A stretch of 32,000 nucleotides of DNA from Staphylothermus hellenicus DSM 12710 (lineage in GTDB: Archaea > Thermoproteota > Thermoprotei_A > Sulfolobales > Desulfurococcaceae): NCBI RefSeq assembly GCF_000092465.1, contig NC_014205.1:420001-452000 (forward strand). The letters run 5' to 3'. Within the stretch, counting starts at the first letter, position 1; each line of letters begins with the position of its first letter. The translations under genes were made by a program, and so were the position numbers. Positions 2,175 through 29,312 of the stretch are shown piece after piece. The notes under the pieces were generated by a model that saw only the letters and a list, made by a program, of their open reading frames with translations, ran no database searches and was not told the origin of the DNA.

Positions 2175-2295
2175 CCCTTAACACACCATATAAGCATGAT
2201 ATGTTTAAATACTATTAGTCTATTACCTTATAAAGACAGTTTTATCCATGTTTAATTAATTCTTCCACATAATAACTAGGTATAAGAATAAAGGT

Positions 2296-3293: not shown

Positions 3294-3313
3294 GGTATGA
3301 AGGGTGATATATT

Positions 3314-13047: not shown

Positions 13048-13072
13048 GTAGCAACATAGAAAGAATTGAAGG
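13048..13072 (+). repeat. Single CRISPR repeat copy in plus orientation, immediately upstream of cas6
   Basis: GTAGCAACATAGAAAGAATTGAAGG matches the array consensus (reverse complement) at 24/25. It ends 11 nt before the first in-frame ATG of cas6 (13084). Confidence 0.7.
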
Positions 13073-13083
13073 GGTGTTTATGT

Positions 13084-13983
13084 ATGCTTGTAACTGATAT
13101 TATTGGTTCGAGGCTTCTCTACTCAGCTTCTCCTAGAACGTATTATAAAGCACATATTGTATTACAGGTAAAGGGGGAAGCTGTTCTTCCCCCCTATACT
13201 GGTAAAGTTGTTAAGACTCTTCTAATCAGTGCAGAACCTGGTTTGGAAGATGTTTTCTCAGCAAATTATAATCCTAAACCAATAGCTATATCTACACTTG
13301 CTAAACGGGTTAATAATAAGTATTTGTATTTGTGGAAGAAGAGTGGTAGTGATGTTGTTTTAAAAGTTGATCCTGGAGATATTGTTGAGTTCTGGACTGG
13401 TTTCACAGAGGATATTGCTTCTAAAATGGTTGAGGCATTAACTGGTCTTGATGGTTTAGAGCTTTTCAATACTAAGTGGTCTTTGCTTGAATACAATATT
13501 GAATCATATAAGCTTCCGGCAAAGCCTGAAGAGGTACCGCTTGATTATCGTTTAGATGATGCTGTAGCTGTGAAGGTTGAGTTTAGAACTCCAGCACTTC
13601 TCCTAGACCCTTATAAGAAGACTATATATAAGAGGTTTCTGCCCACGCCTGGAAATGTTTTCTCATACAACATAGGTGATCTGTTGAGGCTTACACGTGA
13701 TAAAGAATATATTGAGGTAGTTATTCTAGTGAATGCATTACTCAATGAAACATATACGGTGCTGAAAACAGTTAAGCCTGTAAAGTATGTTTATGGAAAA
13801 AAGTCTCTACCAGGAATAGTAGGTTATGCAAAATACATGATAGACTGGGATCTCCTAGTTGAGACCAAAGCTAAGCATTTACTAGAAAACCTATTATTAC
13901 ACGCATCAATAATGGGTATAGGAACAAGTAGAGCAAACGGTTTTGGACACGTAACAATAAAGGTGATACAATCCAATGAGTAA
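13084..13983 (+). CDS. cas6: Cas6 CRISPR-repeat endoribonuclease (stand-alone)
   Basis: About 300 aa. The C-terminal glycine-rich loop GIGTSRANGFGHVTIKV (GxGxxxxxGxG type) and two-RRM-size protein are typical of Cas6, and it sits next to the array. The track starts the ORF at a TTG (13066) inside the repeat. I prefer the ATG at 13084. Confidence 0.75.
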   Translation: MLVTDIIGSRLLYSASPRTYYKAHIVLQVKGEAVLPPYTGKVVKTLLISAEPGLEDVFSANYNPKPIAISTLAKRVNNKYLYLWKKSGSDVVLKVDPGDIVEFWTGFTEDIASKMVEALTGLDGLELFNTKWSLLEYNIESYKLPAKPEEVPLDYRLDDAVAVKVEFRTPALLLDPYKKTIYKRFLPTPGNVFSYNIGDLLRLTRDKEYIEVVILVNALLNETYTVLKTVKPVKYVYGKKSLPGIVGYAKYMIDWDLLVETKAKHLLENLLLHASIMGIGTSRANGFGHVTIKVIQSNE

Positions 13984-14352: not shown

Positions 14353-14808
14353 TCAGTCTAGTTGTTCGGGAGCTATAATATTGTTTCTTGGTAGATTATG
14401 TTTTTCTATAAAATCTATAAGTTTTTCATCAACTGTTAGGAGTAGTAGCTTTCTTGATAAGGCTATTGAGTATAGTAGATTATCAATCATGTCTCGATGA
14501 CCTAGTCTATACATGTATACAGCGTTATTTATGGCATTATCATCTATTGATGCATGATTAATTGTTTCAAAAATCGATCTAATCCCCTGCCTAATACGTA
14601 AAACTTCTTCCTCTTCTCCTCTAATTACCTTTACTATTTTCCATAGAGCTTCAAGTATGCTTATCTCATTATAGTAGAGCTGATAAGAACCTAGCTTATA
14701 AAATGCTTTCATTATTCTCTCCGATGTTTCAAAGCCTAGTATAGGTAGCAGAAACGAGGTATCAAGAAGTATTCTTTTATTGTCTCCTATAGATTTTTTC
14801 TTGTTCAA
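14353..14808 (-). CDS. vapC: PIN-domain ribonuclease toxin
   Basis: 151 aa. The N-terminal ILLDTSFLL acidic-residue motif and size fit a PIN domain. It overlaps the upstream antitoxin gene by 32 nt. Confidence 0.8.
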   Translation of the reverse strand: MNKKKSIGDNKRILLDTSFLLPILGFETSERIMKAFYKLGSYQLYYNEISILEALWKIVKVIRGEEEEVLRIRQGIRSIFETINHASIDDNAINNAVYMYRLGHRDMIDNLLYSIALSRKLLLLTVDEKLIDFIEKHNLPRNNIIAPEQLD

Positions 14809-17150: not shown

Positions 17151-18731
17151 GTGGATTGGAAGGGGGGTAAAAGAATATTAAAGCTTTCCGATGAAGCTTT
17201 AGAAGAAGCTATGAGGATGAGAGGTGAGGCTTTAGAAATAGCTGAGAAGATAAGAATTGAATCCGCCAAAACAATGTATTGGAAAAGGCTTCGGGGGAGG
17301 AATGTTTCTGCTAGTATAATAGATTTTATTCCGGCAACCGGAGTATATTATCCTGGTCAGCGAGTATGTTCTCGTCTGAGGTTCAAGAATACTGGGAATG
17401 TTAGGTGGACTTTCTACATTAGCTATAGTGTTCAGGACGGGAGTGGGAAGCGGTATAATATAAGATCGCATGCTGTAACACTTGATCCAGGCGAGGTTTC
17501 TAGCTGGCAATATATGTGTTGGGATGTACCCCGAAACCCTGTTACGGGATGGTATAAAGTTGTTATGGTTGTTTGGAAGACTATGCCGGAAAAAGATCCT
17601 AATGCTATACAACTTGACTTCAGAGAGAGGGCAAACTCATTCAGGGTTTTAAGGAAGGAAGATTTTGCCCCTGAGCTCGCCTCTTACTATTCAGATGCTG
17701 AGTATGTTGGAGGAGGGGGGTTTGGAAGGGTTTTTAAAGCTAGGAGGAGAGACGGGAAGATAGTTGCTGTGAAGATCCCTGTATCGCTTGATAGGGAGGC
17801 TGGGAAGAGCTTTATCAGGGAGTTAGAGGCTTGGAAGAGGCTTAGACATAGAAATATAATAAAACTATATGATTACAATATATTACCTATCCCGTACCTT
17901 GAAATGGAATATGCTGATAGGAGTCTAGAGGATTTGGAGAAGCCCATGGATGTTGGAGAGGCTGCAAGGATAATACTTGAGGTTGCTGAGGGGCTTAAAT
18001 ATGCTCATATGAACGGGATAATCCATGGAGATCTGAAGCCGCAGAATATCCTCCTCCTAGGAAATACTCCGAAGATCACTGACTGGGGACTAGCAAAGTT
18101 TAGGAAAGAGGATAGGTCTCCTAGGATATCTCCATTCACACCACTATATGCAGCGCCAGAGCAGCTGTTAGAAAAGTTCGGCGAAGTTGATGAGAGAACC
18201 GATATATGGCAGCTTGGCGCAGTCTTCTATGAACTAGTTACTGGCAGACCACCATTCTATAGTGATGATATGGTTGAGACTATGCATAAGATAATAAGTG
18301 AGAAGCCTGTGGAGCCAGGTAGAGTGAACCCGGAGGCGAGGAGTGTAGAGCACATTATAATGAAATGTCTTGAAAAGAGTAAGGATAAGCGTTATCAGAG
18401 CGTGGAGGAGCTTCAAAGAGATCTTGCAGAGTATCTGAAGATCAACTATAATAGATCCCTGGATGAGACCAGGATAAAAGGCGATCTTACAAGATCGAGA
18501 TTCTTCTGTGCCCAGCTAATTCTCCTCTCAGCAAGATACAAAGACTATATGGAGACTATAAAGTATCTTTCAATTTTTAAAGATTATGCATGTGAAGAGG
18601 AGAGAAGACAGATTAACAGCCTAATTGAGCAGATTAACATCAGAATGAAGAGGGAAATAGCGTTTGATGATGAACTTAAGAATAGGATAGAAACCCTTGT
18701 ATATAATGTGATGCTAAAGAAAAGACTCTAA
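17151..18731 (+). CDS. Hanks-type Ser/Thr protein kinase with N-terminal beta-sandwich-like domain and C-terminal helical domain (kinase 1)
   Basis: 526 aa with a GTG start. Kinase motifs: VGGGGFGRVFKA, VAVKIP, HGDLKPQN, DWG (in place of DFG), YAAPE, DIWQLG, KRYQS. The N-terminal ~170 aa resemble a CARDB-like beta-sandwich (RFKNTGNVRWTF...LDPGEVS...GWYKVVMVVW). No TM helix. Confidence 0.9.
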   Translation: MDWKGGKRILKLSDEALEEAMRMRGEALEIAEKIRIESAKTMYWKRLRGRNVSASIIDFIPATGVYYPGQRVCSRLRFKNTGNVRWTFYISYSVQDGSGKRYNIRSHAVTLDPGEVSSWQYMCWDVPRNPVTGWYKVVMVVWKTMPEKDPNAIQLDFRERANSFRVLRKEDFAPELASYYSDAEYVGGGGFGRVFKARRRDGKIVAVKIPVSLDREAGKSFIRELEAWKRLRHRNIIKLYDYNILPIPYLEMEYADRSLEDLEKPMDVGEAARIILEVAEGLKYAHMNGIIHGDLKPQNILLLGNTPKITDWGLAKFRKEDRSPRISPFTPLYAAPEQLLEKFGEVDERTDIWQLGAVFYELVTGRPPFYSDDMVETMHKIISEKPVEPGRVNPEARSVEHIIMKCLEKSKDKRYQSVEELQRDLAEYLKINYNRSLDETRIKGDLTRSRFFCAQLILLSARYKDYMETIKYLSIFKDYACEEERRQINSLIEQINIRMKREIAFDDELKNRIETLVYNVMLKKRL

Positions 18732-19025: not shown

Positions 19026-20297
19026 CTAGTCTAAGCTGCTTCTAAATGAAACCCCTCTATTCCTAAGCCACTTCTCCATCTCTTCGATCCTCTCCCTAGA
19101 ATTTGTTGCATTTACCTCTTCTATGGTCTTCATTATTATATTCTTGTTCAGCACAGGCTTCTCTCCCTTATTAAAAGCTTCCAATGCAGCCTTATCCTTT
19201 GCTCTCTCTAGTGCATTGATGATGTCGTGGATGCTATAAAGTTTCCTCCTCATAGCTGCTGCAATCTCATCTAAATCCTTTTCAGATAAGTCGATGAATA
19301 TGTCTTTGAGCTGTGAGAGTCTATCCTTTATCAAGAATATGATCTCCTTTTTATGGGGTAAACCCACATAAACTATGTTTCCACCAAACCTCCTAATAAT
19401 GTTCTCATCCAGATCCTCAGGATAATTTGTAGACGCTAGCATCAGTAGAAAACCTCTGGTTCCTCCAGGCCTCATCGCCAGGTCTATTAATCGACCGGTC
19501 TCCTGTTTAAATATATTCAATACATTGCCCATAGATGCGTTGATGGCTGCAGCTTTCTTACTAAATAGTCCTCCCAGTTCATCAAAGTATACCCCAATAT
19601 TTAATCCATCCTCTAACATTCGGTTAATGGTGTGGAAAACAGCCTTAGTAGTTTTTTCACTCTGCCCCATATACATCCCAAGCAGTCTAGAAGCATCTAT
19701 CTCAACATAGACCCACTTCCTCCCACTCTTCTTACATAAGCTCGCAATATACCCCATTAAACTCCTAGCAAACGTGGTTTTACCGGTACCACTAGGCCCT
19801 ACAAGCAAGGCGCAATAATTAGGTGAAAGATCCCTATATATCCTCTTAAACCTCAACTCAACTATTCTAAATATCTCCCCTAACACAGGGTTTGTCCTTT
19901 TAATATTGTTGAAAGATAAGATTTTACCAAATTCTTTTACATCAGTTTTAAAGTAAGAGTATATAGGTTTGATGACTATGTTGTACTCATCAGTATTCAG
20001 TGGAACGCCTACTTCGAGCGCCGCATCATTAATATACTTATCTATAACCCCCTCTCCCATCCGCTTAGGAAGTCTTCCCCCCTTAATTTTCTCGATTCTA
20101 TAGTATATTTTCTGGCCAATGGATTTAAGCCTTTCAGAAGTCTCCCTATTCTCTGTTACCCTAATTAAGGAAATTATTATGTTGAGAGATTTCCTGTAAT
20201 AATATAGGGCTGTATCTGGGTCATGTTTTTCATGCTCTCTTGCCTCAGTTATCAATCTATCAAGTTCATCAAGAAGTCTATGGAACTCTTGATACAT
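19026..20297 (-). CDS. MIT-domain AAA+ ATPase, Vps4/CdvC-like (divergent)
   Basis: 423 aa. The N-terminal three-helix MIT-like segment is LDRLITEAREHEKHDPDTALYYYRKSLNIIISLI...IGQKIYYRIEKIKG. Walker A LLVGPSGTGKTT; pore-loop-like GMYMGQSEK; Walker B VYFDELGG; ASTNYPEDLDENIIRRFG (sensor 1 / SRH of classical AAA); C-terminal helix IEEMEKWLRNRG. Confidence 0.85.
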   Translation of the reverse strand: MYQEFHRLLDELDRLITEAREHEKHDPDTALYYYRKSLNIIISLIRVTENRETSERLKSIGQKIYYRIEKIKGGRLPKRMGEGVIDKYINDAALEVGVPLNTDEYNIVIKPIYSYFKTDVKEFGKILSFNNIKRTNPVLGEIFRIVELRFKRIYRDLSPNYCALLVGPSGTGKTTFARSLMGYIASLCKKSGRKWVYVEIDASRLLGMYMGQSEKTTKAVFHTINRMLEDGLNIGVYFDELGGLFSKKAAAINASMGNVLNIFKQETGRLIDLAMRPGGTRGFLLMLASTNYPEDLDENIIRRFGGNIVYVGLPHKKEIIFLIKDRLSQLKDIFIDLSEKDLDEIAAAMRRKLYSIHDIINALERAKDKAALEAFNKGEKPVLNKNIIMKTIEEVNATNSRERIEEMEKWLRNRGVSFRSSLD

Positions 20298-20323
20298 ACC
20301 TTAAATACCCGCTCTCCATCCAA

Positions 20324-20953
20324 TTAAGCTTGTTCTTTATCCATGATCACTTTCTTCCACTCCTTCTCCGGGGCTACCTCCTCTTTAGGCTTTTTCTTAG
20401 CCTCCTTCATCTCGAGCTCTCTAAACTCCTTCTCCATCTCCTTATCAATACCCTCAATCTCCTCCCCTTCCTCTACTATAGAATATCCCTCCATCATCTT
20501 CTCCATTCTATCCTTATACTTCAGATATTTAGCTCTCTGAGCTACAGGATCGATATTTGCCATATCCGCCAGAGTATTTAGTATATCGATCCTACGATTT
20601 TCCTCTACCAAGGTAATTATCTTTATGATATTGTCAACCAAATAATATATTGCCTCATAATAATTTAGAGCCTTTTCCAAATGTTTTCTATACTGCACAT
20701 ACTGTACTTTCGCCATCTTCTGATGTATATCACTTCCTGTTTTTCTATAGATACTATAGTTTTCCTGCCAATCCTTATATATTGCACTTGCTAGTTCTCT
20801 AAAATGGTTTGCTTTAGCATATATTTCCTCTATCCTTCTAATTATCTCCAGACTTTTCCCCTTTAACTCTTCATTATCCAGCTCATCCACCAGCTTTTTA
20901 ACAGGTTCTATAGTATTCCGATAACTAATCCTAACCTCCTGCATCTTCGTCAA
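20324..20953 (-). CDS. ESCRT-III-superfamily-like coiled-coil protein B
   Basis: 209 aa. The TTG at 20953 overlaps the upstream stop; an ATG lies at 20944. A long helical hairpin (KMAKVQYVQYRKHLEKALNYYEAIYYLVDNIIKIITLVEENRRIDILNTLADMANI) is followed by an acidic region and a C-terminal DKEMEKEFRELEMK that resembles a MIM1 motif. Assigned from pattern only. Confidence 0.5.
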   Translation of the reverse strand: MTKMQEVRISYRNTIEPVKKLVDELDNEELKGKSLEIIRRIEEIYAKANHFRELASAIYKDWQENYSIYRKTGSDIHQKMAKVQYVQYRKHLEKALNYYEAIYYLVDNIIKIITLVEENRRIDILNTLADMANIDPVAQRAKYLKYKDRMEKMMEGYSIVEEGEEIEGIDKEMEKEFRELEMKEAKKKPKEEVAPEKEWKKVIMDKEQA

Positions 20954-21588
20954 TCCCCACTAGAATCAGAAAGTTTCTTCTCTATATCGCTCAGCTTGTC
21001 TACCTCCTCACTCTTATATGCTGGTTTTTCCTTTTTCTCTCTAGGTATGTGCCTCCCTGTAGCCTTAGCCTTAGCTAATTCTATAGCGTTCGTAATATCT
21101 TCTTCTTCAACATTTACCATATCGCCTTCCAACTGCCTAGAAATCATTTGGATAGCCTGTCCAAGGTACTGCCTTATATCTTCAACTCCCTTAAAAGGCT
21201 TTATAGGGATTTTGAAGCCGCCTCTGCTAAAAATGTTTCTCAGCTTCGAACTTATCTTATCAAATATAACACTCATATCATGTAATCCAATAGCTGTCTC
21301 AATATCATCAGCCATCATAATAAACTCGTAGCCTAGGTCCATGAAAAGCCTGGCATTTTTTTGAGCTCTAACAGCTCTGGCGGCTAAATGCCTGGTTTCT
21401 GGATGGGACTCACCCTTGACAAGCACAACCTTGCTTAATTCATCCATAAGTTTCTCAGCCTGTCTCTCCCTCTCCTTTGCTTTCTTCTTAAACTGTTCAC
21501 CGATCATTCCAACCTGAGCAAGCAGCTGATACAGCTCTTCCTCCTCATCTTTTCTTCGGAAAATTCTTCTAAAGACCAATAGGAACAC
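20950..21588 (-). CDS. ESCRT-III-superfamily-like protein A (Snf7/CdvB/PspA-like)
   Basis: 212 aa. A basic-hydrophobic N-terminus MFLLVFRRIFRRK precedes a helical hairpin (KKKAKERERQAEKLMDEL...ETRHLAARAVRAQKNARLFMDLGYEFIMMADDIETAIGLHDMSVIFDKISSKLRNI) that parallels the ESCRT-III alpha1-alpha3 pattern. The acidic C-terminus ends in the MIM-like EEVDKLSDIEKKLSD. Confidence 0.55.
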   Translation of the reverse strand: MFLLVFRRIFRRKDEEEELYQLLAQVGMIGEQFKKKAKERERQAEKLMDELSKVVLVKGESHPETRHLAARAVRAQKNARLFMDLGYEFIMMADDIETAIGLHDMSVIFDKISSKLRNIFSRGGFKIPIKPFKGVEDIRQYLGQAIQMISRQLEGDMVNVEEEDITNAIELAKAKATGRHIPREKKEKPAYKSEEVDKLSDIEKKLSDSSGD

Positions 21589-21610: not shown

Positions 21611-21626
21611 TAATATTTTAAATATG
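21611..21626 (-). promoter_or_regulatory. TATA-box-like element for the ESCRT-III/AAA operon
   Basis: The minus strand reads CATATTTAAAATATTA, centred about 30 nt upstream of the ATG at 21588. This spacing fits an archaeal short-leader promoter. Confidence 0.3.
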
Positions 21627-21739: not shown

Positions 21740-22402
21740 TTGGGTACGTTGGGTGGAGAGAAGAAAGGTTATGCGGAGAAGCTTTATTGGGAACTACAAT
21801 CGAAAAAGGAAATCGACTTAGGAAAGCATGGGGGATACAGAGTATATTATAAGAATAAGTTCGATAGGGAATACCTGCTCTTTCTAGAGAGAAGGAGAAA
21901 ACTATATTCCTTCTTCAGCTCCCCAGCGGTTAGAAAACTACTAATCGATATTCGAGAAAATAATGATGACTATGAAGCTCTCTATCATTTAAGCCGAGTA
22001 GATAAGATTATCGTGATCAAATATACCAAGGATATTGGTGGAAACCTGCCTCCCCTACCAGCAGGTGATAAGGTAGAGGTCATAGTAATAGAGCCCGAAA
22101 CACTGCTCAACAAAGCTGACCCAGATCTAGGAATTAAGATATTCCCTGACAAGAAGGACTCTCTATCAAGAATCCTATATAATAAGTATCTTTACAAGGA
22201 CTTAAGAGTGGACAAAATTAAATCCTATATAAGACGCAGGATTGAGGAGGCTAAGGCTAGTAATGGAAAATTATGGGTGTGTTTGAAGGAGCTGAAGAAG
22301 GAATACAAGTATGAGAATGAAGAATTCTGGAAAGAATTTATCCATATGATAAAGAATGATGAAGATTTTATCTATCAAGATGAATATATAACAACTAGAT
22401 AA
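21740..22402 (+). CDS. Hypothetical cytoplasmic protein, divergent from the ESCRT-III/AAA operon
   Basis: 220 aa. Only TTG starts are available (21740 or 21749); there is no in-frame ATG near the 5' end. ATTATAA lies about 30 nt upstream. No motif recognised. Confidence 0.5.
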   Translation: MGTLGGEKKGYAEKLYWELQSKKEIDLGKHGGYRVYYKNKFDREYLLFLERRRKLYSFFSSPAVRKLLIDIRENNDDYEALYHLSRVDKIIVIKYTKDIGGNLPPLPAGDKVEVIVIEPETLLNKADPDLGIKIFPDKKDSLSRILYNKYLYKDLRVDKIKSYIRRRIEEAKASNGKLWVCLKELKKEYKYENEEFWKEFIHMIKNDEDFIYQDEYITTR

Positions 22403-22426
22403 CTCAAACACTATGATAAGTTACTC

Positions 22427-23476
22427 TTAGGAGATGATGTAGAGGAAATAATATGTGAATGAGACGAACTCAGGCTCTTTATCCCTACACCATAGGTGAT
22501 AATAAATAGTTGAATCCTGGCCTATTAGATCTTGTATCATCCTATCAAGGCTGTATCTAGGAAAATAGGCGAATATAAGCGATAACAATAGTACAGTTAG
22601 CAGTCCAGCTATAATAAGATAGCCTCCCAGGGTCTTTCCAAGATAGATAGATAAGAAATTACCTACAACTAAGTAATAATATGGTATCATGTACAGAAAT
22701 ATTATCTGAGCATTTAATGCATATCTAAGATCTTTCCTCACCTCCTCATTCACTATATTATCGAAGAAGCCTAACTTGTTTATCACTTCCCTTGCTTTGA
22801 AAAACTTCTTATTATAGAACCCTATTACAAGCAGGATCAGTGAGAATATTAAAATCTCATTCCCTAGTATTTGTCCAAAATAGTAGATGGGATTTGAGAA
22901 TGTTTTATACGATATATCTAAAAACACGTCATGCATTAATGTAGGCTTTACGGTTTTGATATAATAAGCTCCTACCATTGTCTCATATACGGGGATGAAC
23001 AGATATTTGTAAACGATCCGGAAGAATGCAGCTATATTTGCTAAGAGTGGATAATATCTAAGTATATGTAAACCATAAATGTCTAGTCTAAATAAATCAA
23101 GAAAACCTAGATCATTATTTCTACGGGATGCTATCCTCGCTATTGAAAAGAACAGTGGTTGAGAAAATATTAATATAGCCATAATTAAGTCTAAAACCAT
23201 ATTAGCCGGGGTTAAAACATACTTGGTCCATGGACTGCTAAAAAAGTATAATGAGCCTTTAAAAATGGCTAGAAATAATATAATGAATATTATGTACCCC
23301 TTATATCTACTGCCCCGCCTCTTTATAGCTAGAATCCTATGCTTAATTATCTCCTCTTCCTCGGTTTGAATTATCTGTGTCTGATCCCTGCATATAACTT
23401 CTCTAAGCCTGGGATTGTATCTGTAGTTGTCTAGATAAGTATTTATAATTCTATGTAAGTCATTATTAGCTGGCAT
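22427..23476 (-). CDS. Polytopic membrane protein (about 6-7 TM), unknown function
   Basis: 349 aa. A cytoplasmic N-terminal ~65 aa is followed by multiple hydrophobic segments. It starts 18 nt downstream of the 23495-24391 gene. Confidence 0.65.
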   Translation of the reverse strand: MPANNDLHRIINTYLDNYRYNPRLREVICRDQTQIIQTEEEEIIKHRILAIKRRGSRYKGYIIFIILFLAIFKGSLYFFSSPWTKYVLTPANMVLDLIMAILIFSQPLFFSIARIASRRNNDLGFLDLFRLDIYGLHILRYYPLLANIAAFFRIVYKYLFIPVYETMVGAYYIKTVKPTLMHDVFLDISYKTFSNPIYYFGQILGNEILIFSLILLVIGFYNKKFFKAREVINKLGFFDNIVNEEVRKDLRYALNAQIIFLYMIPYYYLVVGNFLSIYLGKTLGGYLIIAGLLTVLLLSLIFAYFPRYSLDRMIQDLIGQDSTIYYHLWCRDKEPEFVSFTYYFLYIIS

Positions 23477-23494
23477 TTTTCCTCCACTCTACAG

Positions 23495-24391
23495 TTAATG
23501 TATTAGAGATTCTATAGATTTATTTAGGACGTGTTTTAATGTATCGGTTGAGAATTTAGACAACGGCCCCAGATGCTCATTAAATATTAGGCAGGGTTCA
23601 AACTCGTTCTTAATAATACTGAATATTACACCCCCTAAAAGATCCCTATACCGCTTTATCTCCAGCTCATTACTAGCTATTTTACTACATAATTCTGTAA
23701 TGCATTTTAAAATGCAGAGTTTGAACCTGAAAAATGTTTTCAGCAACGAAAACCCAGGTATTCTATCCTTGATCTCATTGAATTCTTTACTCAACTTATC
23801 ATATTTATCGCTAAGAACGCTATGTAGCTCTTTAATCATTTTCGTACTAGCTTTCCTATCCATTCCCGATATATCGTAGCTGGACTGGTATAGCATAGGC
23901 CTGAAACACACATTAATCACCTCATATAGCTTAATCAGTTTGCCTATTTCCTCCGCTTTATATCGCTCCTCTATCTTGTCAAGTATTGAAGCCCTCCTAA
24001 TAACATAGTTCATGAGAGAAATATCGGGGGTCTGTGAACTGTTTTCATCATAGCTGATCAGAGATGGAGGAGCTGTTTCCAAATCAGATAATTTATCATG
24101 TTTAGAGGAGATCAAGCATTTGTAGAGATAATCCTTATATTCTTCTAAAATATTTCTTAGAAAATCCAGTTTATCAATCATTTCTTCTATATTTGTAGAT
24201 GCAGGGGAACCTTCTTTACAATATTTCTTAATAGAGTCCTTAACTTCTCTTACTTCATTGAGGATTTTATTTGCTTCTCTAATTAAATCTTTTGGAGTAA
24301 CAAAGTGTTCCAGATTATATATAAGGCATAGGCCCTCATCCTCAAGCTTAGTAATTTTATTGGCTAGATCTCCACGACAACCATTACCCAT
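23495..24391 (-). CDS. All-helical cytoplasmic protein, unknown function
   Basis: 298 aa with an ATG start. Divergent from the 24562 gene across a 170-bp, extremely AT-rich spacer. Confidence 0.6.
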   Translation of the reverse strand: MGNGCRGDLANKITKLEDEGLCLIYNLEHFVTPKDLIREANKILNEVREVKDSIKKYCKEGSPASTNIEEMIDKLDFLRNILEEYKDYLYKCLISSKHDKLSDLETAPPSLISYDENSSQTPDISLMNYVIRRASILDKIEERYKAEEIGKLIKLYEVINVCFRPMLYQSSYDISGMDRKASTKMIKELHSVLSDKYDKLSKEFNEIKDRIPGFSLLKTFFRFKLCILKCITELCSKIASNELEIKRYRDLLGGVIFSIIKNEFEPCLIFNEHLGPLSKFSTDTLKHVLNKSIESLIH

Positions 24392-24561
24392 ATGTTACGC
24401 CTCTAAAAACCATATCATATAATAATCTAAGAAATGATAAATAAATAATTTATTTTTAATTGTTCCCTCAAAGAAAAACTATAAATTAAATTATTACAAT
24501 ATTATATAAAATAATTAAAATTTAGCCTAAACATTAAACATTATTTTTTAAGTAGTGAAAG

Positions 24562-26463
24562 GTGTATGCATTGGAAACAGGAATAGATGTTTGGAAACTG
24601 CTTAAGGAGGAAGTTTTAAGGCCCGTAGATAAAGTTCTCTCATATGATTTAGAGGCTCTCCGCAGAACTAGTGAGGACAAAAGGGAGAGGCTATGGGGCG
24701 AGGTAGTGGATGCTCATGAAAAATTTGAAGAATTCATGTCCGAGCTTCCCGGTGCGGTAAGGAGGGAGGTTTTGGGCGAAATAGAGCTTGCAAAGCTACT
24801 GCTCGCCACAGCTGCAAAGGTGAATGGCGAGAACAACCCAATAATTGATTTATTCAGCTCTGAGGAGCTTAAGCTCGTGGAGAGGTTTGAGAGGTATAGT
24901 GTTTTCGATATTCTAACTATTGATGAGATTGTTGAGAGAGTTGCGAGGAGGGATGAGATCTATGACCTGATCATGGAATACTATAAGAATGAGTACTCCG
25001 ATCTCGACAAGATCCTTGAGGATCCGAGGATCAGGAGAAGCCTAAGATATGCTTTCAAGAAGAGGTATAAGAAGAGGCTGGACAAGGTTAAGGAGGGGGT
25101 TAAAGCATATGTTGAGAAATACGGCCCCATCATCATGGTTAGGCAGATAGAGGAGAAAATATGGAGGAAGATAAAGGAGTCTGAAGAAGAGAGAAAAATG
25201 ATTATGGAAAGACTTAGGAGAAGGATGGAAGAGCTTTCCTTGAAGCTGAGGCCCCTCGAGGATGTTGAGAGAAAAAGCAGTGTCTTCATGGACAGACTCC
25301 ACGATATAGAAAGCAGTGTTTTCTTTGGAGAAAAGACCGGCTACGACGAGCATGAAAAGGATGAGCTACTGAGGAGATACCTTGATTTTGAAAAGCTTCT
25401 AGCCGAGCAGGTTGAGGCGATAGAGAAGGAGAAGAGAGAGCTTGAGAATAGGAGGAAGGAGCTGGAGAAAGCTGAACAAGAATATAGGAGAAAAGCTGAG
25501 GAGGAGGCGCAGAGGATTATTGAAAGCGAGCTCAGAAAGATCGAGGATCTAGGGAAGGAGCTGGCTAAGAAAAAGGAGGAGCTGGAGGAGGAGGTAAAGA
25601 ATGTAAGGATGAAGAGGCTTGAGATAGAGGAGACACTGAAGCAGGTAAGGGAGGCTGAGAAGGGAGAGTACCGCTTAGTTACAAGTGAGGATGCTAGGCT
25701 GGCAGAGCTAAACTTTATAGCAAGATTTGATGAGAAAATGCATGCCTTTCCACTGAGAATTCACTCCCCAATAGAGGGTAGAGAGTATGTTGTTAAATCA
25801 TGGCGTGAAGGAGAGAGGCTAAAGATGAGTGAGAGCGTGGCGGAGGGCATCCCATCAAACCTTAGGTTAAGATATGTTATCACCGAGAAAAAACATAAAT
25901 TCTTCGGGGAGAGAGTTAGGAAAGTCGTTATCGAGGCAATATCCTTCAACCATCTCAGAGAGTTTAAGGAATTCGGGTTTGATGCGAGGAAGGCAAATCT
26001 TGCAGAGTTTTTAAAGCTTGTAGAAGGAGCTATAGATAAAGCTGAAATCGGGAAATACTTCCACGTCATGGGCATAGCATCTCCAACAGGCTGGGATGAT
26101 AGAGTTGTAAGGGAAATATCATCAAGCGAGTTTGCAAGAAACTATGTAAGCAGATATATCTCAGTATGCCTAATAGATTCAATCACAGGAGACATCTACT
26201 ACAACCCCGCCGATGAAAGAATAACCAAATTCATCGAATTCTTCAAACCACAATTTAAAAGAGAAAGAGTTGAGAGCGTGAAAAAAACAATCCTCAACAA
26301 ACTTTCAACTAAAGGATATGTCGTCCTAGACGATGTAGTAAATGAGACTAGGGAGGAGAGAAGAATAGTGCTCAAAGCCTTCTACGACCTAGAGAAAGAA
26401 GGAAAGGGAAAGGTGAAGAATGTCAAGGATATTGGAACTGTGTTTGATGCTGAATCCATGTGA
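24562..26463 (+). CDS. Large coiled-coil protein with C-terminal globular domain, co-oriented with and 11 nt upstream of kinase 2
   Basis: 633 aa with a GTG start. A central ~150-aa E/K/R-rich coiled coil (EKEKRELENRRKELEKAEQEYRRKAEEEAQRIIESELRKIEDLGKELAKKKEELEEEVKN) is followed by a C-terminal ~250-aa mixed domain (HVMGIASPTGWDDRVV...) that ends in a possible winged-helix-like tail. Confidence 0.7.
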   Translation: MYALETGIDVWKLLKEEVLRPVDKVLSYDLEALRRTSEDKRERLWGEVVDAHEKFEEFMSELPGAVRREVLGEIELAKLLLATAAKVNGENNPIIDLFSSEELKLVERFERYSVFDILTIDEIVERVARRDEIYDLIMEYYKNEYSDLDKILEDPRIRRSLRYAFKKRYKKRLDKVKEGVKAYVEKYGPIIMVRQIEEKIWRKIKESEEERKMIMERLRRRMEELSLKLRPLEDVERKSSVFMDRLHDIESSVFFGEKTGYDEHEKDELLRRYLDFEKLLAEQVEAIEKEKRELENRRKELEKAEQEYRRKAEEEAQRIIESELRKIEDLGKELAKKKEELEEEVKNVRMKRLEIEETLKQVREAEKGEYRLVTSEDARLAELNFIARFDEKMHAFPLRIHSPIEGREYVVKSWREGERLKMSESVAEGIPSNLRLRYVITEKKHKFFGERVRKVVIEAISFNHLREFKEFGFDARKANLAEFLKLVEGAIDKAEIGKYFHVMGIASPTGWDDRVVREISSSEFARNYVSRYISVCLIDSITGDIYYNPADERITKFIEFFKPQFKRERVESVKKTILNKLSTKGYVVLDDVVNETREERRIVLKAFYDLEKEGKGKVKNVKDIGTVFDAESM

Positions 26464-26474
26464 AGAGGTGAGTT

Positions 26475-29312
26475 ATGGTTTTTGGATGGTTTAAAAAGAA
26501 GGGATCAGAAGAGCTTAAAAAGAAGGCAAAAATATTGAAAAGGAAAATAAACAAATTTACAACACTCCTATGGATCTATAAGACAGGCGGTTATGTTGAT
26601 GCTGTCTCAGTCTCAGCAGATGGTTCATATATTATAGCAGGATCAGATGATGGTAGGGTTTATTTCTTTAACAGGGATGGAGAGCTTTTATGGAGCTATG
26701 AGACAGATGATAAGGTTTATAGTGTCTCAGTCTCAGCAGATGCCTCTTATATTGTAGCGGGATCAGGGGATGGTGGGGTTTATTTCTTTAACAGGGATGG
26801 GCTCCTATGGATCTATAAGACAGGAGATCTTGTTCACAGTGTCTCAATATCATCAAATGCCTCATATATTATAGCAGGATCAGGGGATCATAATGTTTAC
26901 TTCTTCAATAGGGAAGGGAAACTCTTATGGAGCTATGAAACAGGCAATGATGTTCGAAGTGTCTCGATCTCATCAGATGGCTCGTACATTGTTGCGGAGT
27001 CAGGGTGGGTAGTTTATCTTTTCAATATGGAAGGAAAACTTCTATGGAGCCATAAGATAGGAAGTGATGTTTATGATGTCTCGGTTTCAGCAGATGGCTA
27101 TGTTGTAGCAGGATCGAAAGATTATAATGTTTATTTCTTCAGTAGAAGTGGAGAGCTCTTATGGAGCTATAAGACAGGAGGTCCCGTTTATAGTGTCTCA
27201 GTCTCAGCAGATGGTTCATATATTATAGCAGGATCAGATGATGGTAGGGTTTATTTCTTTAACAGGGATGGAGAGCTTTTATGGAGCTATGAGACAGATG
27301 ATAAGGTTTATAGTGTCTCAGTCTCAGCAGATGCCTCTTATATTGTAGCGGGATCAGGGGATGGTGGGGTTTACTTCTTTGGGTTTGATTCAGAAAAATA
27401 CTTGGCAAGGCTGTATGGTTCAACAATAGAGAAGTGGAGGGAGGAAGGCTATGATGTTTCTGAGCTGGAGGCTGAGATAAGTTATTCAAAAATAAAAGAT
27501 TATGAGGCGAGGATTCAGAGGCTGAAACAGCTTGAAAGCGAACTGAGCTCTCTGAATATAAAAGGGATGAACAAAATAAAGGCGAAATTAAAAGATCCTA
27601 GGAGAGTGGAGGAGCTGGAAGAAGAGGTTTCATTGCTGAAGCAGGCTTTAAAAGCTATTAATGCGGCACGAACGGCATTGATTGAGACAGGAAAACTATG
27701 TGATGTCTCAGAAGCTGAAGAAATACTGAGGAGAGCGGAATCAAAATTTGGGACTGGAGATTATGCCGGAGCTGTTTCTGATGCTAATGAATGTGGAAGA
27801 GTACTGGAAAAGATAAAGGAGAGATCGAAGCCAGAAATAGAGGTAGAATTACCCATAAAATCACTCAAACCAAACTACTGGAAGGCCTCCAGCCTAATCC
27901 TGAAGAACAAAGGGAATATGCATGCTGAGGATGTAAGAATAGAGTTCTCAAAAGAGGTTGAAGTAAGAGGTCTAAAAGAGTTGAGCATAAAGGCTGGAGA
28001 GGAGAAGAAAATAACCATTTCTCTGAAGCCTAAGGAGGTTGGAGAAGTTCCTGTGGAAGTAAGGGTATCCTATAAAGACGGTGTTGGAAGGGAATATTTC
28101 TCAGAGAGAACATTTATAATTCTAGTTTCTGAGGAGGTTCCTAAAACTCCTCCACCTGTAGTGGCAGAGACACTCCCTCCAGAATCGGTGAGCAAACACG
28201 TTACCCCAGGAATATCTCCGGCGGAATTCACTCCATCACCAACAACACCAAGGACATTTCCCCCAGAACTGGCAAGCAGATATACTGGTGTAGAATATGT
28301 TGGTAGGGGAGGTTTTGCAAGGGTTTTCAAGGCGAAAAGGAAGGATGGTAAGGTTGTGGCTGTGAAGATTCCAGCAGTACTGGATGAGGCTACTGGGAAA
28401 TCGTTTTTGAGGGAGATAGAGAATTGGACAAAGCTGAAGCATGAGAATATTGTCAGGGTTTATGATTACAACATATTGCCAATTCCATATTTTGAGATGG
28501 AATTATGTGATAAATCGCTTGCAGAACTTGATAAGCCAATGGATGTTAGGGAGGCTGCATGGATAGTGTTCAGAATAGCTGAGGGCTTGAAGTATGCTCA
28601 TGCAAGGGGGATAATTCATAGAGATTTAAAGCCTCAGAACATTATGTTAAAGGATGGAATACCGAAGATAAGCGACTGGGGGTTGAGCAAGGTCATAACT
28701 GAATCATCGTCAAGCCTTGCATCCTTTACACCATTATATGCTGCTCCAGAACAGATAACTGGGGGTGTGAAGGATCAGAGGACGGATATATGGCAGCTTG
28801 GAGTAATATTTTACGAGCTCGTCACCGGAGAACTACCATTTAAAGGCGATAACCCTGTAGAGGTAGGGATGGCGATAGCAACCAGAGAACCTATTAAACC
28901 ATCCAGGCTTAATCCTGAAGCTAAGGATGTTGAGCCAATTATAATGAAGTGCTTGGAGAAGAATAAGGAGAAGCGTTATCAAAGTATGGAAGAGCTTCAA
29001 AGAGATCTTGCCGAATACTTAAAGGTTGAATATAAGAGATCTCTTAGTGAGAGCAGAGCTAAGAAGGATATTGCGAGGTCAAAACTGTTCTGCGGAGATC
29101 TCGTCCTACTCTCAGCCATGCTCAGAGACTACCATGAAGTTTTAAAGCATCTCTCAGTCCTCAAGGACTATGCTGGAGAAGAAGGGAGAAAAGAAATAGA
29201 CATGTTGATCAAGGAGCTTGAGCTTAGAATTAAGAGGAAAATAGAGTTTGATGATGAGCTTGTTGAAAGGATAAAGGTTTTGGTATACAAGGTTAAGATG
29301 AGCAGGAAGTAG
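26475..29312 (+). CDS. Multidomain Hanks-type Ser/Thr kinase: 7-bladed beta-propeller, helical linker, CARDB-like beta-sandwich, Pro-rich linker, kinase, C-terminal helical domain (kinase 2)
   Basis: 945 aa. Seven repeats of about 40 aa (LLWSYETGxxVxSVSVSADGSYIxAGSxDxxVYFFNRDGE). Kinase motifs: VGRGGFARVFKA, VAVKIP, HRDLKPQN, DWG, YAAPE, DIWQLG, KRYQS. The kinase and C-terminal region is clearly paralogous to 17151-18731. GAGGTGA SD upstream. No TM helix or signal peptide. Confidence 0.9.
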   Translation: MVFGWFKKKGSEELKKKAKILKRKINKFTTLLWIYKTGGYVDAVSVSADGSYIIAGSDDGRVYFFNRDGELLWSYETDDKVYSVSVSADASYIVAGSGDGGVYFFNRDGLLWIYKTGDLVHSVSISSNASYIIAGSGDHNVYFFNREGKLLWSYETGNDVRSVSISSDGSYIVAESGWVVYLFNMEGKLLWSHKIGSDVYDVSVSADGYVVAGSKDYNVYFFSRSGELLWSYKTGGPVYSVSVSADGSYIIAGSDDGRVYFFNRDGELLWSYETDDKVYSVSVSADASYIVAGSGDGGVYFFGFDSEKYLARLYGSTIEKWREEGYDVSELEAEISYSKIKDYEARIQRLKQLESELSSLNIKGMNKIKAKLKDPRRVEELEEEVSLLKQALKAINAARTALIETGKLCDVSEAEEILRRAESKFGTGDYAGAVSDANECGRVLEKIKERSKPEIEVELPIKSLKPNYWKASSLILKNKGNMHAEDVRIEFSKEVEVRGLKELSIKAGEEKKITISLKPKEVGEVPVEVRVSYKDGVGREYFSERTFIILVSEEVPKTPPPVVAETLPPESVSKHVTPGISPAEFTPSPTTPRTFPPELASRYTGVEYVGRGGFARVFKAKRKDGKVVAVKIPAVLDEATGKSFLREIENWTKLKHENIVRVYDYNILPIPYFEMELCDKSLAELDKPMDVREAAWIVFRIAEGLKYAHARGIIHRDLKPQNIMLKDGIPKISDWGLSKVITESSSSLASFTPLYAAPEQITGGVKDQRTDIWQLGVIFYELVTGELPFKGDNPVEVGMAIATREPIKPSRLNPEAKDVEPIIMKCLEKNKEKRYQSMEELQRDLAEYLKVEYKRSLSESRAKKDIARSKLFCGDLVLLSAMLRDYHEVLKHLSVLKDYAGEEGRKEIDMLIKELELRIKRKIEFDDELVERIKVLVYKVKMSRK
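26603..26789 (+). repeat. Intragenic direct repeat, copy 1 (propeller blades 1-2)
   Basis: This 187-nt stretch is identical to 27194-27380 except for one base (26783 T versus 27374 C). Offset 591 nt, in frame. Confidence 0.95.
27194..27380 (+). repeat. Intragenic direct repeat, copy 2 (propeller blades 6-7)
   Basis: See copy 1. The encoded peptide VSVSADGSYIIAGSDDGRVYFFNRDGELLWSYETDDKVYSVSVSADASYIVAGSGDGGVYFF occurs twice. Confidence 0.95.

What the first reader, a model, noticed from the sequence alone, without database searches (positions are those of the whole stretch)
19026..21588. Three-gene operon: two short ESCRT-III-like proteins with MIM-like tails plus a divergent MIT-AAA ATPase, without a recognisable cdvA
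Seen: the genes are tightly packed (a TTGA overlap or a 5-nt gap, then a 26-nt gap). The ATPase has a MIT-like N-terminal three-helix segment, a Walker A GPSGTGKT (canonical Vps4/CdvC usually has GPPGxGKT), a Walker B FDELGG and a classical-AAA SRH. Both upstream proteins are about 210 aa. Each has a long helical hairpin, an acidic region and a C-terminal amphipathic peptide (EEVDKLSDIEKKLSD; DKEMEKEFRELEMK) that resembles the MIM1 consensus (D/E)xxLxxRLxxL(K/R). Established: MIT-MIM contacts recruit Vps4 to ESCRT-III. Canonical crenarchaeal CdvB carries a C-terminal winged helix that binds CdvA. Inference: neither protein is long enough for that winged helix, and I see no PRC-barrel CdvA-like ORF in the window. 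This therefore looks like an accessory ESCRT-III/Vps4 module rather than the division locus. Protein A starts with a basic-hydrophobic MFLLVFRRIFRRK that could be a membrane-binding helix alpha-0, as in Snf7, PspA and Vipp1.
Basis: partly seen in the sequence, partly recalled or inferred. Interest (0 to 1): 0.75.

Follow-up and report, generated by a model that had tools for sequence, protein, structure and literature searches.

The report
Orphan ESCRT-III-like / Vps4-like operon
A heat-loving archaeon (Staphylothermus hellenicus) carries a three-gene operon found nowhere else: a very divergent Vps4/CdvC-type ATPase preceded by two small helical proteins that are predicted, but not proven, to have the ESCRT-III membrane-remodelling fold, so it may be a second, non-division ESCRT-like machine.

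Summary
The three minus-strand genes are real, tightly packed and have native codon usage. The window is Staphylothermus hellenicus DSM 12710 (B = Shell_0485).

The ATPase (423 aa) is a genuine but extremely divergent Vps4/CdvC-type enzyme. It aligns colinearly with a CdvC profile from the MIT domain to the C-terminal helix, and all catalytic residues are intact. It scores only 58 bits on the NCBIfam CdvC model (cut-off 650) and has no ortholog among 1.84 billion representative proteins.

Proteins A and B have no homologs and no significant Snf7, CdvB or PspA profile hit. A's only sequence signal is a weak, in-register N-terminal match (2 of 300 shuffles reach it). AlphaFold gives A a confident ESCRT-III-like helix order (pLDDT 80). 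The best Foldseek matches for both A and B are ESCRT-III superfamily proteins (CdvB2, IST1, CHMP1B, Vipp1, PspA), but no E-value is below 0.01.

The "MIM1-like tails" do not match MIM1 or MIM2, and the usual charge asymmetry is missing. No cdvA or cdvB lies in the window.

This is a species-restricted, highly derived ESCRT-III/Vps4-like module, with the ATPase assignment solid and the ESCRT-III assignment probable.

The parts
21614..21622 (-). TATA-like box TTTAAAATA, 34 nt upstream of the GTG of gene A. It is the likely archaeal promoter of the operon, giving a short or leaderless 5' UTR.
   Evidence: Read directly from the sequence. This is inference only; no transcript data were available.
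20950..21588 (-). Gene A (212 aa from GTG; 209 aa in public calls, ADI31617.1/WP_013142815.1, 'hypothetical protein'). Predicted ESCRT-III-like fold: N-terminal basic amphipathic segment plus alpha1 (2-58), alpha2 (63-100), alpha3 (105-122), alpha4 (135-154), alpha5 (162-177), disordered linker (178-196) and terminal helix (197-208).
   Evidence: AF2 single sequence gives pLDDT 80.2 and pTM 0.70. In Foldseek against PDB, the hits with the highest probability (0.97-0.99) and TM (0.42-0.54) are CdvB2 filaments, IST1 and CHMP1B/IST1, with E 0.09-0.4. In BFVD the named top hits are a Snf7-family and a PspA/IM30 protein. hhalign against 61 CdvB sequences scores 22.8 for A 5-33 in register with the ESCRT-III N-terminus; 2 of 300 shuffles reach it. 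There are no Pfam, NCBIfam or PDB sequence hits.
20324..20953 (-). Gene B (209 aa from TTG; 206 aa from ATG codon 4 = Shell_0485, ADI31616.1). Helical protein with a long hairpin (28-72, 75-117), shorter helices (124-132, 136-154), an acidic stretch (155-185, net about -9) and a lysine-rich tail. Possible second ESCRT-III-like subunit.
   Evidence: AF2 gives pLDDT 65.1 and pTM 0.54. In Foldseek against PDB, ranks 1-11 and 28 of the top 50 are ESCRT-III superfamily proteins (Vipp1, PspA, CHMP1B, Asgard ESCRT-IIIB, CdvB2, Snf7), but E is 0.2-1.7 and TM 0.2-0.36. No sequence-profile signal was found.
19026..20297 (-). Divergent Vps4/CdvC-like AAA ATPase (423 aa; 'AAA family ATPase [S. hellenicus]').
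   Evidence: Pfam AAA 1.5e-15. A crenarchaeal CdvC profile gives 80 bits and E 7e-27, colinear over HMM 12-371 and aa 11-412. NCBIfam CdvC is the best family but scores 58 bits against a cut-off of 650. No ortholog was found among 1.84e9 representatives.
20067..20267 (-). MIT-like three-helix domain of the ATPase (aa 11-77).
   Evidence: Pfam MIT gives E 0.0047 and 17.4 bits, below the gathering score of 30. A CdvC N-terminal profile gives 15.4 bits and E 8.4e-7 as a single comparison. It aligns with Pfam-confirmed MIT domains of P0227, P0137 and P0159, with A30 and Y34 invariant.
19338..19820 (-). AAA core (aa 160-320): Walker A GPSGTGKT (K173), pore loop 1 MYMGQSEK, Walker B D239-E240, sensor-1 N291 and arginine fingers R302-R303 (RRF).
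   Evidence: Alignment A1 and the CdvC profile alignment.
19062..19106 (-). C-terminal helix (aa 398-412, ...IEEMEKWLR) aligned with the Vps4/CdvC C-terminal helix (ayekWae). Like crenarchaeal CdvC, the protein has no beta-domain insertion.
   Evidence: Pfam Vps4_C itself is not among the 25 families listed for this protein.
17151..18731 (+). Flanking Ser/Thr kinase 1 (526 aa), convergent with the ATPase gene. Possible but unproven functional partner.
   Evidence: Pkinase 1e-45. It is a paralog of kinase 2, with 49% identity over about 500 aa.
26475..29312 (+). Flanking Ser/Thr kinase 2 (945 aa), made of a PQQ/WD40-like beta-propeller, a coiled coil, a weak Ig-like (CARDB-type) region, the kinase domain and a C-terminal helical domain shared with kinase 1. 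Possible but unproven functional partner.
   Evidence: The architecture recalls the STKs of euryarchaeal ESCRT loci described in PMC11188069.

Best explanation
This is a species-restricted, highly derived ESCRT-III/Vps4-type module in Staphylothermus hellenicus, separate from the canonical cdvABC division locus.

Shown: one operon encodes two unrelated ~210-aa helical proteins followed by a single-ring classical AAA ATPase. The ATPase has an N-terminal MIT domain, an intact ATPase site and pore loop, and a Vps4-type C-terminal helix.

Inferred:
- A, and probably B, adopt the ESCRT-III fold and assemble, alone or together, into polymers on the membrane. A would use its N-terminal basic-hydrophobic VFRRIF segment for membrane contact.
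- The ATPase hexamer docks through its MIT domain on the exposed C-terminal helices of A and/or B. It then extracts subunits by threading them through its pore, remodelling or recycling the polymer.
- The docking peptides are not canonical MIM1 or MIM2, so the MIT-tail pair would have co-diverged.

The physiological role is not cell division. Vesicle budding, membrane repair or a response to viruses are candidates, possibly under control of the two flanking Ser/Thr kinases.
For: ATPase:
- It aligns colinearly with CdvC from the MIT domain to the C-terminal helix, and the MIT match gives E 8.4e-7.
- Walker A and B, sensor-1, the RRF arginine fingers and the aromatic pore loop are all conserved.
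- CdvC is the best NCBIfam family.

Synteny:
- In the roughly 60 canonical loci where a cdvB-sized ORF lies just upstream, the ESCRT-III gene directly precedes cdvC.
[quoted passage not shown] It accepts a 'derived ESCRT-III' with only weak PspA similarity on that basis.

Protein A:
- The AF2 model is confident (pLDDT 80) and has the ESCRT-III helix order.
- The PDB matches with the highest probability and TM are CdvB2, IST1 and CHMP1B.
- The named BFVD top hits are Snf7 and PspA.
- hhalign gives an in-register N-terminal match to CdvB at the position where CHMP4B and Snf7 align; 2 of 300 shuffles reach the score.

Protein B: 28 of the top 50 PDB matches, including ranks 1-11, are ESCRT-III superfamily proteins.

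Control: the accepted superfamily members IST1, PspA and Snf7 score no better than A against the CdvB profile.

The genes are genuine and have native codon usage.
Against: - Neither A nor B has a significant Snf7, CdvB or PspA profile hit.
- Every Foldseek E-value is above 0.01. BAR domains and designed helical proteins appear in the same lists for A.
- Both models come from single sequences, and B's is of low confidence (pLDDT 65).
- The usual ESCRT-III charge asymmetry is absent in A and weak in B, and neither has a MIM1 or MIM2 motif.
- With no homologs at all, there is no conservation or covariation evidence that the module is under selection for this function.
- Polymerisation, membrane binding and the MIT-tail contact are all untested.
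Confidence: 0.55

Rival explanations
1. The ATPase is a Vps4-like unfoldase, but A and B are not ESCRT-III-fold polymers. They are generic helical-bundle or coiled-coil proteins, such as adaptors, regulators or soluble substrates, whose resemblance to ESCRT-III is the non-specific similarity of any long helical hairpin.
For: There are no significant sequence-profile hits. Foldseek E-values are 0.02-1.7, with BAR-domain and de novo helical proteins interleaved in A's list. Charge asymmetry and MIM motifs are missing. A and B are unrelated to each other.
Against: Three searches in two libraries put ESCRT-III superfamily proteins on top by probability and TM. The number and lengths of A's helices fit ESCRT-III (57, 38, 18, 20 and 16 residues plus a terminal helix) rather than the three long helices of a BAR domain. 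A's N-terminal motif aligns in register with the CdvB and CHMP4B N-termini. The position directly upstream of an MIT-AAA gene is the ESCRT-III position.
Confidence: 0.27
2. The operon is cargo of a variable genomic island and acts as an antiviral or conflict system: an AAA ATPase with two effector or sensor partners, comparable to other ATPase-based defence systems. It would not be a housekeeping membrane-remodelling machine.
For: All three genes are species-restricted orphans. About 10 kb of neighbouring genes are also without family assignment. A Cas6 gene and a MazE/PIN toxin-antitoxin pair lie 5-8 kb away. The ATPase gives weak PADLOC hits to TRIP13 and IetA.
Against: The PADLOC hits cover only the generic AAA core, and A and B have no PADLOC or PHROG hit. 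No phage relative exists beyond the AAA core. Codon usage and GC content are native. No integrase, tRNA or repeat borders were seen. This rival is compatible with an ESCRT-like mechanism being used for defence.
Confidence: 0.1
3. The module is a decaying or non-functional remnant, for example a degraded duplicate of cdvB/cdvC, or A and B are mis-called ORFs.
For: The divergence is extreme (58 bits on the CdvC model), and no homologs exist anywhere.
Against: All reading frames are intact. Coding-frame codon statistics equal those of conserved genes. Every catalytic residue of the ATPase is retained. A gets a confident AF2 model from a single sequence. The genes are tightly coupled, with a TATA-like box upstream.
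Confidence: 0.06

Closest known systems
Crenarchaeal CdvB/CdvB1-3 plus CdvC (Cdv cell-division system; Vps4 'CdvA clade' of PMC11188069)
   Same: The ESCRT-III-position gene or genes lie directly upstream of a MIT-AAA-C-terminal-helix ATPase. The ATPase aligns colinearly with CdvC, lacks the beta-domain insertion as crenarchaeal CdvC does, and keeps all catalytic residues. A and B are the size of CdvB1-3, which have no winged helix.
   Different: There is no cdvA and no winged-helix CdvB. The ATPase scores 58 bits on the NCBIfam CdvC model, against 412-522 bits for the CdvC-like proteins P0227 and P0163 (cut-off 650). A and B do not match a 61-sequence CdvB profile that still detects human CHMP2A, CHMP3 and CHMP1B at about 3e-13. 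They have no MIM2 motif, which is present in 44 of 61 CdvBs. The Walker A is GPSGTGKT and pore loop 1 is MYMGQ rather than KWLGE.
'Derived ESCRT-III' upstream of a Vps4-like ATPase in the haloarchaeal Halo_adaptin systems (Makarova et al. 2024, PMC11188069)
   Same: This is a precedent for an archaeal ESCRT-like locus in which the ESCRT-III component is recognisable only by weak or structural similarity and by its position upstream of the ATPase. Those loci also contain PQQ/WD40 beta-propeller proteins, and related 'Main' and 'Halo_FHA' systems carry Ser/Thr kinases. Both features flank the present operon.
   Different: The Halo_adaptin ATPase lacks an MIT domain and has a VAT-N domain, whereas this one has MIT. 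Those systems are conserved across several genomes and occur in Euryarchaeota. This one is confined to one crenarchaeal species, and no winged-helix or adaptin-like partner was identified.
IST1-CHMP1B two-component ESCRT-III copolymer with MIT-domain ATPases (eukaryotes)
   Same: A's lowest-rmsd structural matches are closed IST1 N-terminal domains (rmsd 8-10 Å, TM about 0.5). A also shares IST1's lack of charge asymmetry (+1/0 against +2/0). B's top matches are open-form CHMP1B, Vipp1 and PspA. In both cases two dissimilar ESCRT-III-fold subunits act with one MIT-AAA enzyme.
   Different: There is no sequence similarity (Pfam Ist1 and Snf7 give no hit). IST1 and CHMP1B carry defined MIM1 and MIM3 elements that A and B lack. 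The open or closed state of a single-sequence AF2 model is not reliable evidence.
PspA/Vipp1 (bacterial and archaeal ESCRT-III superfamily, PF04012)
   Same: These are helical-hairpin proteins with an N-terminal amphipathic helix alpha0 used for membrane binding. B's top Foldseek hits are Vipp1 and PspA, and the charge profile is similarly flat.
   Different: There is no PF04012 hit. PspA and Vipp1 are not partnered with a MIT-AAA ATPase.

Membership tests
ESCRT-III sensu stricto (Pfam Snf7 PF03357 / archaeal CdvB family) | Significant match to a Snf7 or CdvB sequence profile | tested here: not met
   Pfam and NCBIfam give no hit at E<=10. hhalign against 5 eukaryotic ESCRT-III sequences gives E 0.17 for A and 0.67 for B. 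The 61-sequence CdvB HMM gives A 4.1 bits, out of register, and B -2.7 bits. hhalign against the 61 CdvBs gives A probability 5%, with 2 of 300 shuffles reaching its score, and B at noise level.
ESCRT-III superfamily (Snf7/CdvB/IST1/PspA/Vipp1 fold) | A long alpha1-alpha2 hairpin followed by short alpha3, alpha4 and alpha5, a flexible linker and a terminal helix | tested here: inconclusive
ESCRT-III superfamily | Basic N-terminal hairpin and acidic C-terminal half (autoinhibition) | tested here: not met
   A is +1/0 and B is +2/-5, against +7 to +15 and -12 to -27 in the CHMPs and Snf7. The accepted members IST1 (+2/0) and PspA (-2/-4) also lack it, so the feature is typical rather than universal.
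ESCRT-III superfamily | C-terminal MIT-interacting motif (MIM1 (D/E)xxLxxRLxxL(K/R) or MIM2 core phi-P-x-phi-P) | tested here: not met
   Regular-expression scans, strict and relaxed, find neither motif in A or B. The same scans find MIM1 in CHMP2A, the L..RL..L core in CHMP1B and CHMP3, and the MIM2 core in Snf7, CHMP4B and 44 of 61 CdvBs.
ESCRT-III superfamily | N-terminal hydrophobic or amphipathic membrane-insertion segment | tested here: met
   A residues 1-13, MFLLVFRRIFRRK, have muH 0.57 and charge +5. They align with the N-terminal 'lf' motif of CdvB, where CHMP4B's VFGKLFG aligns. B has no such segment.
ESCRT-III superfamily | Polymerisation into filaments, rings or tubes on membranes | not testable with these tools
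   This needs purified protein and electron microscopy or liposome assays.
ESCRT-III superfamily | Gene located directly upstream of a Vps4-type ATPase gene (archaeal synteny rule) | tested here: met
   A and B directly precede the MIT-AAA gene, with a 4-nt overlap or 5-nt gap and then a 26-nt gap. The order cdvB then cdvC holds in the canonical loci, and the rule is stated in PMC11188069.
Vps4/CdvC (MIT-AAA; arCOG01307 as used in PMC11188069) | N-terminal MIT domain | tested here: met
   Pfam MIT gives E 0.0047, below the gathering score. A crenarchaeal CdvC N-terminal profile gives 15.4 bits and E 8.4e-7 as a single comparison, covering aa 13-77. The segment aligns with Pfam-confirmed MIT domains. 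No structure model of this domain was made.
Vps4/CdvC | A single classical AAA domain with Walker A and B, sensor-1 Asn, two SRH arginine fingers (RRF) and an aromatic pore loop 1 | tested here: met
   K173, D239-E240, N291 and R302-R303 are invariant in alignment A1, and pore loop 1 is M-Y-M-G. Pfam AAA gives 1.5e-15.
Vps4/CdvC | C-terminal helix after the lid domain (Vps4_C) | tested here: inconclusive
   The CdvC profile alignment runs to HMM position 371, pairing 'ayekWae' with 'EMEKWLR', and the MSA agrees. Pfam Vps4_C is not among the listed hits.
CdvC equivalog (NCBIfam NF041006) | Score at or above the curated cut-off of 650 bits | tested here: not met
   The ATPase scores 58 bits. The Acidilobus CdvC-like protein P0163 scores 522 bits and P0227 scores 412 bits.
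Canonical Cdv division locus | cdvA adjacent, and a CdvB with a C-terminal winged helix | tested here: not met
   A CdvA HMM built from 44 sequences finds nothing in 264 six-frame segments (best E 0.083). A and B are 209-212 aa, against 245-311 aa for locus CdvBs.
PspA/IM30 (PF04012) | Match to the PspA_IM30 profile | tested here: not met
   Nothing is listed for A or B at E<=10, although HMMER filters drop most hits above about 0.1.
Known anti-phage defence systems (PADLOC) | Match of the components to a defence-system model set | tested here: not met
   A and B have no hits. The ATPase matches only the generic AAA core of TRIP13 and IetA.

The most novel reading that the evidence does not exclude
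The operon is the core of a second, non-Cdv ESCRT-like system in a crenarchaeon. It would be a two-subunit polymer, with A closed like IST1 and B open like CHMP1B or PspA, serviced by its own co-diverged MIT-AAA ATPase through a new type of MIT-binding peptide. It would be functionally coupled to the two flanking Ig-like/PQQ-propeller Ser/Thr kinases, as in the kinase-associated ESCRT systems so far described only in Euryarchaeota. This would mean that TACK archaea did not simply reduce ESCRT to a division machine.
Probability: 0.15. Interest if true: 0.75.

Novelty: new variant of a known kind. Interest (0 to 1): 0.55.

Why it matters
Crenarchaeal ESCRT biology is currently described as one reduced system, CdvABC plus CdvB paralogs, used for division and vesicle release. 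A separate operon with its own Vps4-like ATPase and two ESCRT-III-fold proteins invisible to sequence profiles would have three consequences:

- ESCRT-type modules could be missed by family-based censuses.
- It would offer a minimal, thermostable, three-protein system for reconstitution.
- It would provide an MIT domain paired with non-MIM1, non-MIM2 peptides, useful for understanding how MIT-ligand specificity evolves.

Its restriction to one species limits generality and leaves function open.

Tried and rejected
- **Homolog-based analysis of A and B:** impossible. The word-indexed search of 5.8 billion clusters returned only the proteins themselves. The 98%-identical fragment P0001 comes from a second sequencing run (SRR019221), with an accession adjacent to the run (SRR019220) that holds the identical locus, so it is probably not an independent strain.
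- **Ortholog and synteny route through the ATPase:** the exhaustive HMMER scan found no ortholog. All hits cover only the AAA core.
- **By-eye CHMP2A resemblance:** my impression that A residues 30-160 resemble CHMP2A was not supported by hhalign or HMM tests and is dropped.
- **A and B as paralogs:** rejected.
- **Viral, plasmid or defence origin:** PHROGs, PADLOC and phage tblastn gave nothing beyond the generic AAA core.
- **Gas-vesicle idea:** B's GvpT/P hit (E 0.031) and the ATPase's GvpN hit (E 0.049) are far below cut-offs, and GvpN belongs to a different AAA+ clade, so this was rejected.
- **Canonical cdv locus of S. hellenicus:** the genome-contig scan with Acidilobus CdvC returned 80 better-scoring loci from other taxa, and Staphylothermus was not among them.
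- **Published mention of the genes:** no paper mentions Shell_0484, Shell_0485 or Shell_0486.

Full report
**1. What is there**

The window is part of the Staphylothermus hellenicus DSM 12710 chromosome. Protein B is identical to Shell_0485 (ADI31616.1). Protein A is ADI31617.1/WP_013142815.1. The third protein is annotated 'AAA family ATPase [S. hellenicus]'.

Three ORFs lie head to tail on the minus strand:
- A: 20950-21588, 212 aa, GTG start.
- B: 20324-20953, 209 aa, TTG start.
- ATPase: 19026-20297, 423 aa.

A and B overlap by 4 nt (TTGA). If B starts at its ATG codon 4, as in the public gene calls, a 5-nt gap separates them. A 26-nt gap separates B from the ATPase. A TATA-like TTTAAAATA lies 34 nt upstream of A's GTG.

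Frame-specific codon statistics for A, B and the ATPase (+0.31, +0.41, +0.23 log2 units per codon) match nine conserved genes of the window (+0.27 to +0.51). The long antisense ORFs score negative. These are real genes with native composition.

**2. The ATPase**

Pfam gives AAA at 1.5e-15 and a sub-threshold MIT hit for aa 19-72 (E 0.0047). The best NCBIfam family is CdvC, but at 58 bits against a cut-off of 650.

I fetched 80 canonical cdvC loci from crenarchaeal genomes and built profiles from them. The full CdvC profile aligns with the ATPase as one colinear domain, HMM 12-371 to aa 11-412, at 80 bits and E 7e-27. The N-terminal (MIT) profile alone hits aa 13-77 with E 8.4e-7 as a single comparison.

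I also aligned the ATPase with MIT-AAA-Vps4_C proteins whose domains Pfam confirms. These positions are invariant: A30 and Y34 in MIT helix 2, Walker A K173, Walker B D239-E240, sensor-1 N291 and the RRF arginine fingers R302-R303. Pore loop 1 keeps its aromatic residue (MYMGQSEK against KWLGESEK). The C-terminal helix (EMEKWLR) aligns with the Vps4 C-terminal helix. As in crenarchaeal CdvC, there is no beta-domain insertion.

The enzyme therefore has the Vps4/CdvC architecture and looks catalytically competent. It is also an extreme outlier. An exhaustive HMMER scan of 1.84 billion representative proteins found only itself below 1e-30, and every other hit matched just the AAA core. It is Vps4-like, but it is not a CdvC equivalog.

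**3. Proteins A and B: sequence evidence**

Neither protein has any homolog other than itself. The 98%-identical fragment comes from a second sequencing run, whose accession is adjacent to the run that holds the identical locus, so it is probably the same genome project. A and B are not similar to each other.

No Snf7, PspA, IST1 or other family is reported by Pfam or NCBIfam at E<=10. There are no PDB sequence hits.

- hhalign against five Pfam-validated eukaryotic ESCRT-III sequences: E 0.17 for A and 0.67 for B.
- An HMM of 61 crenarchaeal CdvB proteins taken from the cdvA-cdvB-cdvC loci: A scores 4.1 bits with an out-of-register alignment, and B scores -2.7 bits.
- hhalign against the same 61 sequences: A scores 22.8, with 2 of 300 shuffles reaching that score. 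A residues 5-33 (VFRRIF...) align to the N-terminal 'lf' motif and the start of alpha1, exactly where CHMP4B (VFGKLFG) and Snf7 align. B is at noise level.

The controls matter. The CdvB HMM detects human CHMP2A, CHMP3 and CHMP1B at about 3e-13. It gives PspA 3.8 bits, Snf7 2.3 bits and IST1 0.4 bits. In hhalign, PspA (20.9) and IST1 (15.6) score below A.

So A and B are not members of the Snf7/CdvB sequence family. A sequence miss does not exclude the ESCRT-III superfamily fold.

**4. Proteins A and B: structural evidence**

With no alignment available, AlphaFold2 was run on single sequences.

A gives a confident model (pLDDT 80.2, pTM 0.70). Its helices are 2-58, 63-100, 105-122, 135-154 and 162-177, followed by a disordered linker (178-196) and a terminal helix (197-208). 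This is the alpha1-alpha5 plus terminal-helix order of ESCRT-III.

B's model is weaker (pLDDT 65.1). It has a 28-72/75-117 hairpin, shorter helices, an acidic stretch and a terminal segment.

Foldseek against PDB gave no hit at E<=0.001 for either protein.
- For A, the hits with the highest probability (0.97-0.99) and TM (0.42-0.54) are Sulfolobus CdvB2 filaments, IST1 N-terminal domains and CHMP1B/IST1. BAR domains and designed helical proteins in the same list have probability 0.15-0.77 and TM 0.2-0.4.
- For B, ranks 1-11 and 28 of the top 50 are Vipp1, PspA, CHMP1B, Asgard ESCRT-IIIB, CdvB2 or Snf7, with low TM.
- Against viral models, the named proteins among A's top hits are a Snf7-family and a PspA/IM30 protein.

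**5. Features that do not fit**

The textbook ESCRT-III charge asymmetry is absent in A (+1/0) and weak in B (+2/-5). IST1 and PspA also lack it.

The proposed 'MIM1-like' tails match neither strict nor relaxed MIM1 patterns, nor the MIM2 core. The same patterns recover MIM1 in CHMP2A, the L..RL..L core in CHMP1B and CHMP3, and MIM2 in Snf7, CHMP4B and 44 of 61 CdvBs. The tails are only low-confidence amphipathic helices. If the MIT domain binds them, it does so through a non-canonical peptide.

**6. Context**

No CdvA-like or CdvB-like ORF occurs in any of 264 six-frame segments of the window. In the canonical loci the order is cdvA (about 240 aa), cdvB (245-311 aa), cdvC. The present operon keeps only the rule that an ESCRT-III gene lies directly upstream of Vps4, a rule also stated in PMC11188069.

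That paper describes several non-Cdv archaeal ESCRT systems in Euryarchaeota. One has a 'derived ESCRT-III' recognised only by weak PspA similarity and its position. Others are associated with Ser/Thr kinases or PQQ/WD40 propeller proteins. The paper regards TACK archaea as retaining only the reduced Cdv system.

Here the operon is flanked by two paralogous Ser/Thr kinases (49% identity). They share a weak Ig-like region, the kinase domain and a conserved C-terminal helical domain, and one also has a PQQ-like propeller. This is suggestive but untested.

The intervening genes have no family assignment. There is no viral or defence-system affinity. Canonical Cdv genes are documented for S. marinus and for Desulfurococcales in general. 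I could not retrieve the S. hellenicus cdv locus itself.

**7. Conclusion**

The best-supported reading (confidence about 0.55) is a species-restricted, highly derived ESCRT-III/Vps4-type module. One or two ESCRT-III-fold proteins would be remodelled by a dedicated MIT-AAA unfoldase, apart from the division machinery.
- The ATPase assignment is solid, at about 0.85.
- The ESCRT-III fold is probable for A (about 0.65-0.7) and possible for B (about 0.5).
- The MIM reading is not supported.

The main rival (0.27) is that A and B are generic helical partners or substrates of a Vps4-like unfoldase.

This is a new variant of a known kind. The interest is moderate: it is surprising for crenarchaeal ESCRT biology and attractive for reconstitution, but it is confined to one genome and rests on single-sequence structure predictions.

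Noticed in passing
window 17151-18731 (+) and 26475-29312 (+): Two paralogous Ser/Thr kinases (49% identity over about 500 aa, E 3e-153) bracket the block. They share a weak Ig-like/CARDB-type region (below Pfam thresholds), the kinase domain and a conserved ~100-aa C-terminal helical domain. This architecture resembles the STKs reported in euryarchaeal ESCRT loci (PMC11188069).
   Followed up: partly
window 26565-27380: A tandem DNA repeat of 120 nt, about 6.9 copies at 73% identity, encodes the blades of the PQQ/WD40-like beta-propeller at the N-terminus of kinase 2. The blade repeats are still visible at the DNA level.
   Followed up: no
window 21740-26463: Four consecutive genes have no Pfam, PHROG or PADLOC family: a 220-aa protein divergent from gene A (21740-22402 +), a 349-aa multi-pass membrane protein (22427-23476 -), a 298-aa helical protein (23495-24391 -) and a 633-aa coiled-coil protein directly upstream of kinase 2 (24562-26463 +). 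They may belong to the same system or to a variable island.
   Followed up: partly
window 13066-13983 (+); 14353-14808 (-); L001 11270-11945: A stand-alone Cas6 gene (PADLOC Cas6 2.4e-44) and a MazE-like/PIN toxin-antitoxin pair lie 5-8 kb from the operon. Tandem Repeats Finder reported no repeat array in the window, but it was not run to detect spaced CRISPR repeats.
   Followed up: partly
window 822-4462: A sulfate-activation gene neighbourhood lies at the left end of the window. It includes an adenylylsulfate kinase-like P-loop protein (2296-2841 -) and an ATP-sulfurylase-like protein (3314-4462 +). These identifications are by eye from the translations and were not verified by profile search.
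   Followed up: no
window 19525-19710, 20240-20581, 20996-21331 (+): Long antisense ORFs (61-113 aa) lie opposite the three genes. Their codon statistics are negative in all frames, so they are by-products of the composition of the coding strand and not genes.
   Followed up: yes
ATPase aa ~138-150 and 186-194 (window ~19716-19886): Relative to CdvC-like proteins, the ATPase carries two lineage-specific insertions. One is about 12 aa before Walker A (NPVLGEIFRIVE). The other is 9 aa after the Walker A helix (KKSGRKWVY). Their function is unknown.
   Followed up: no
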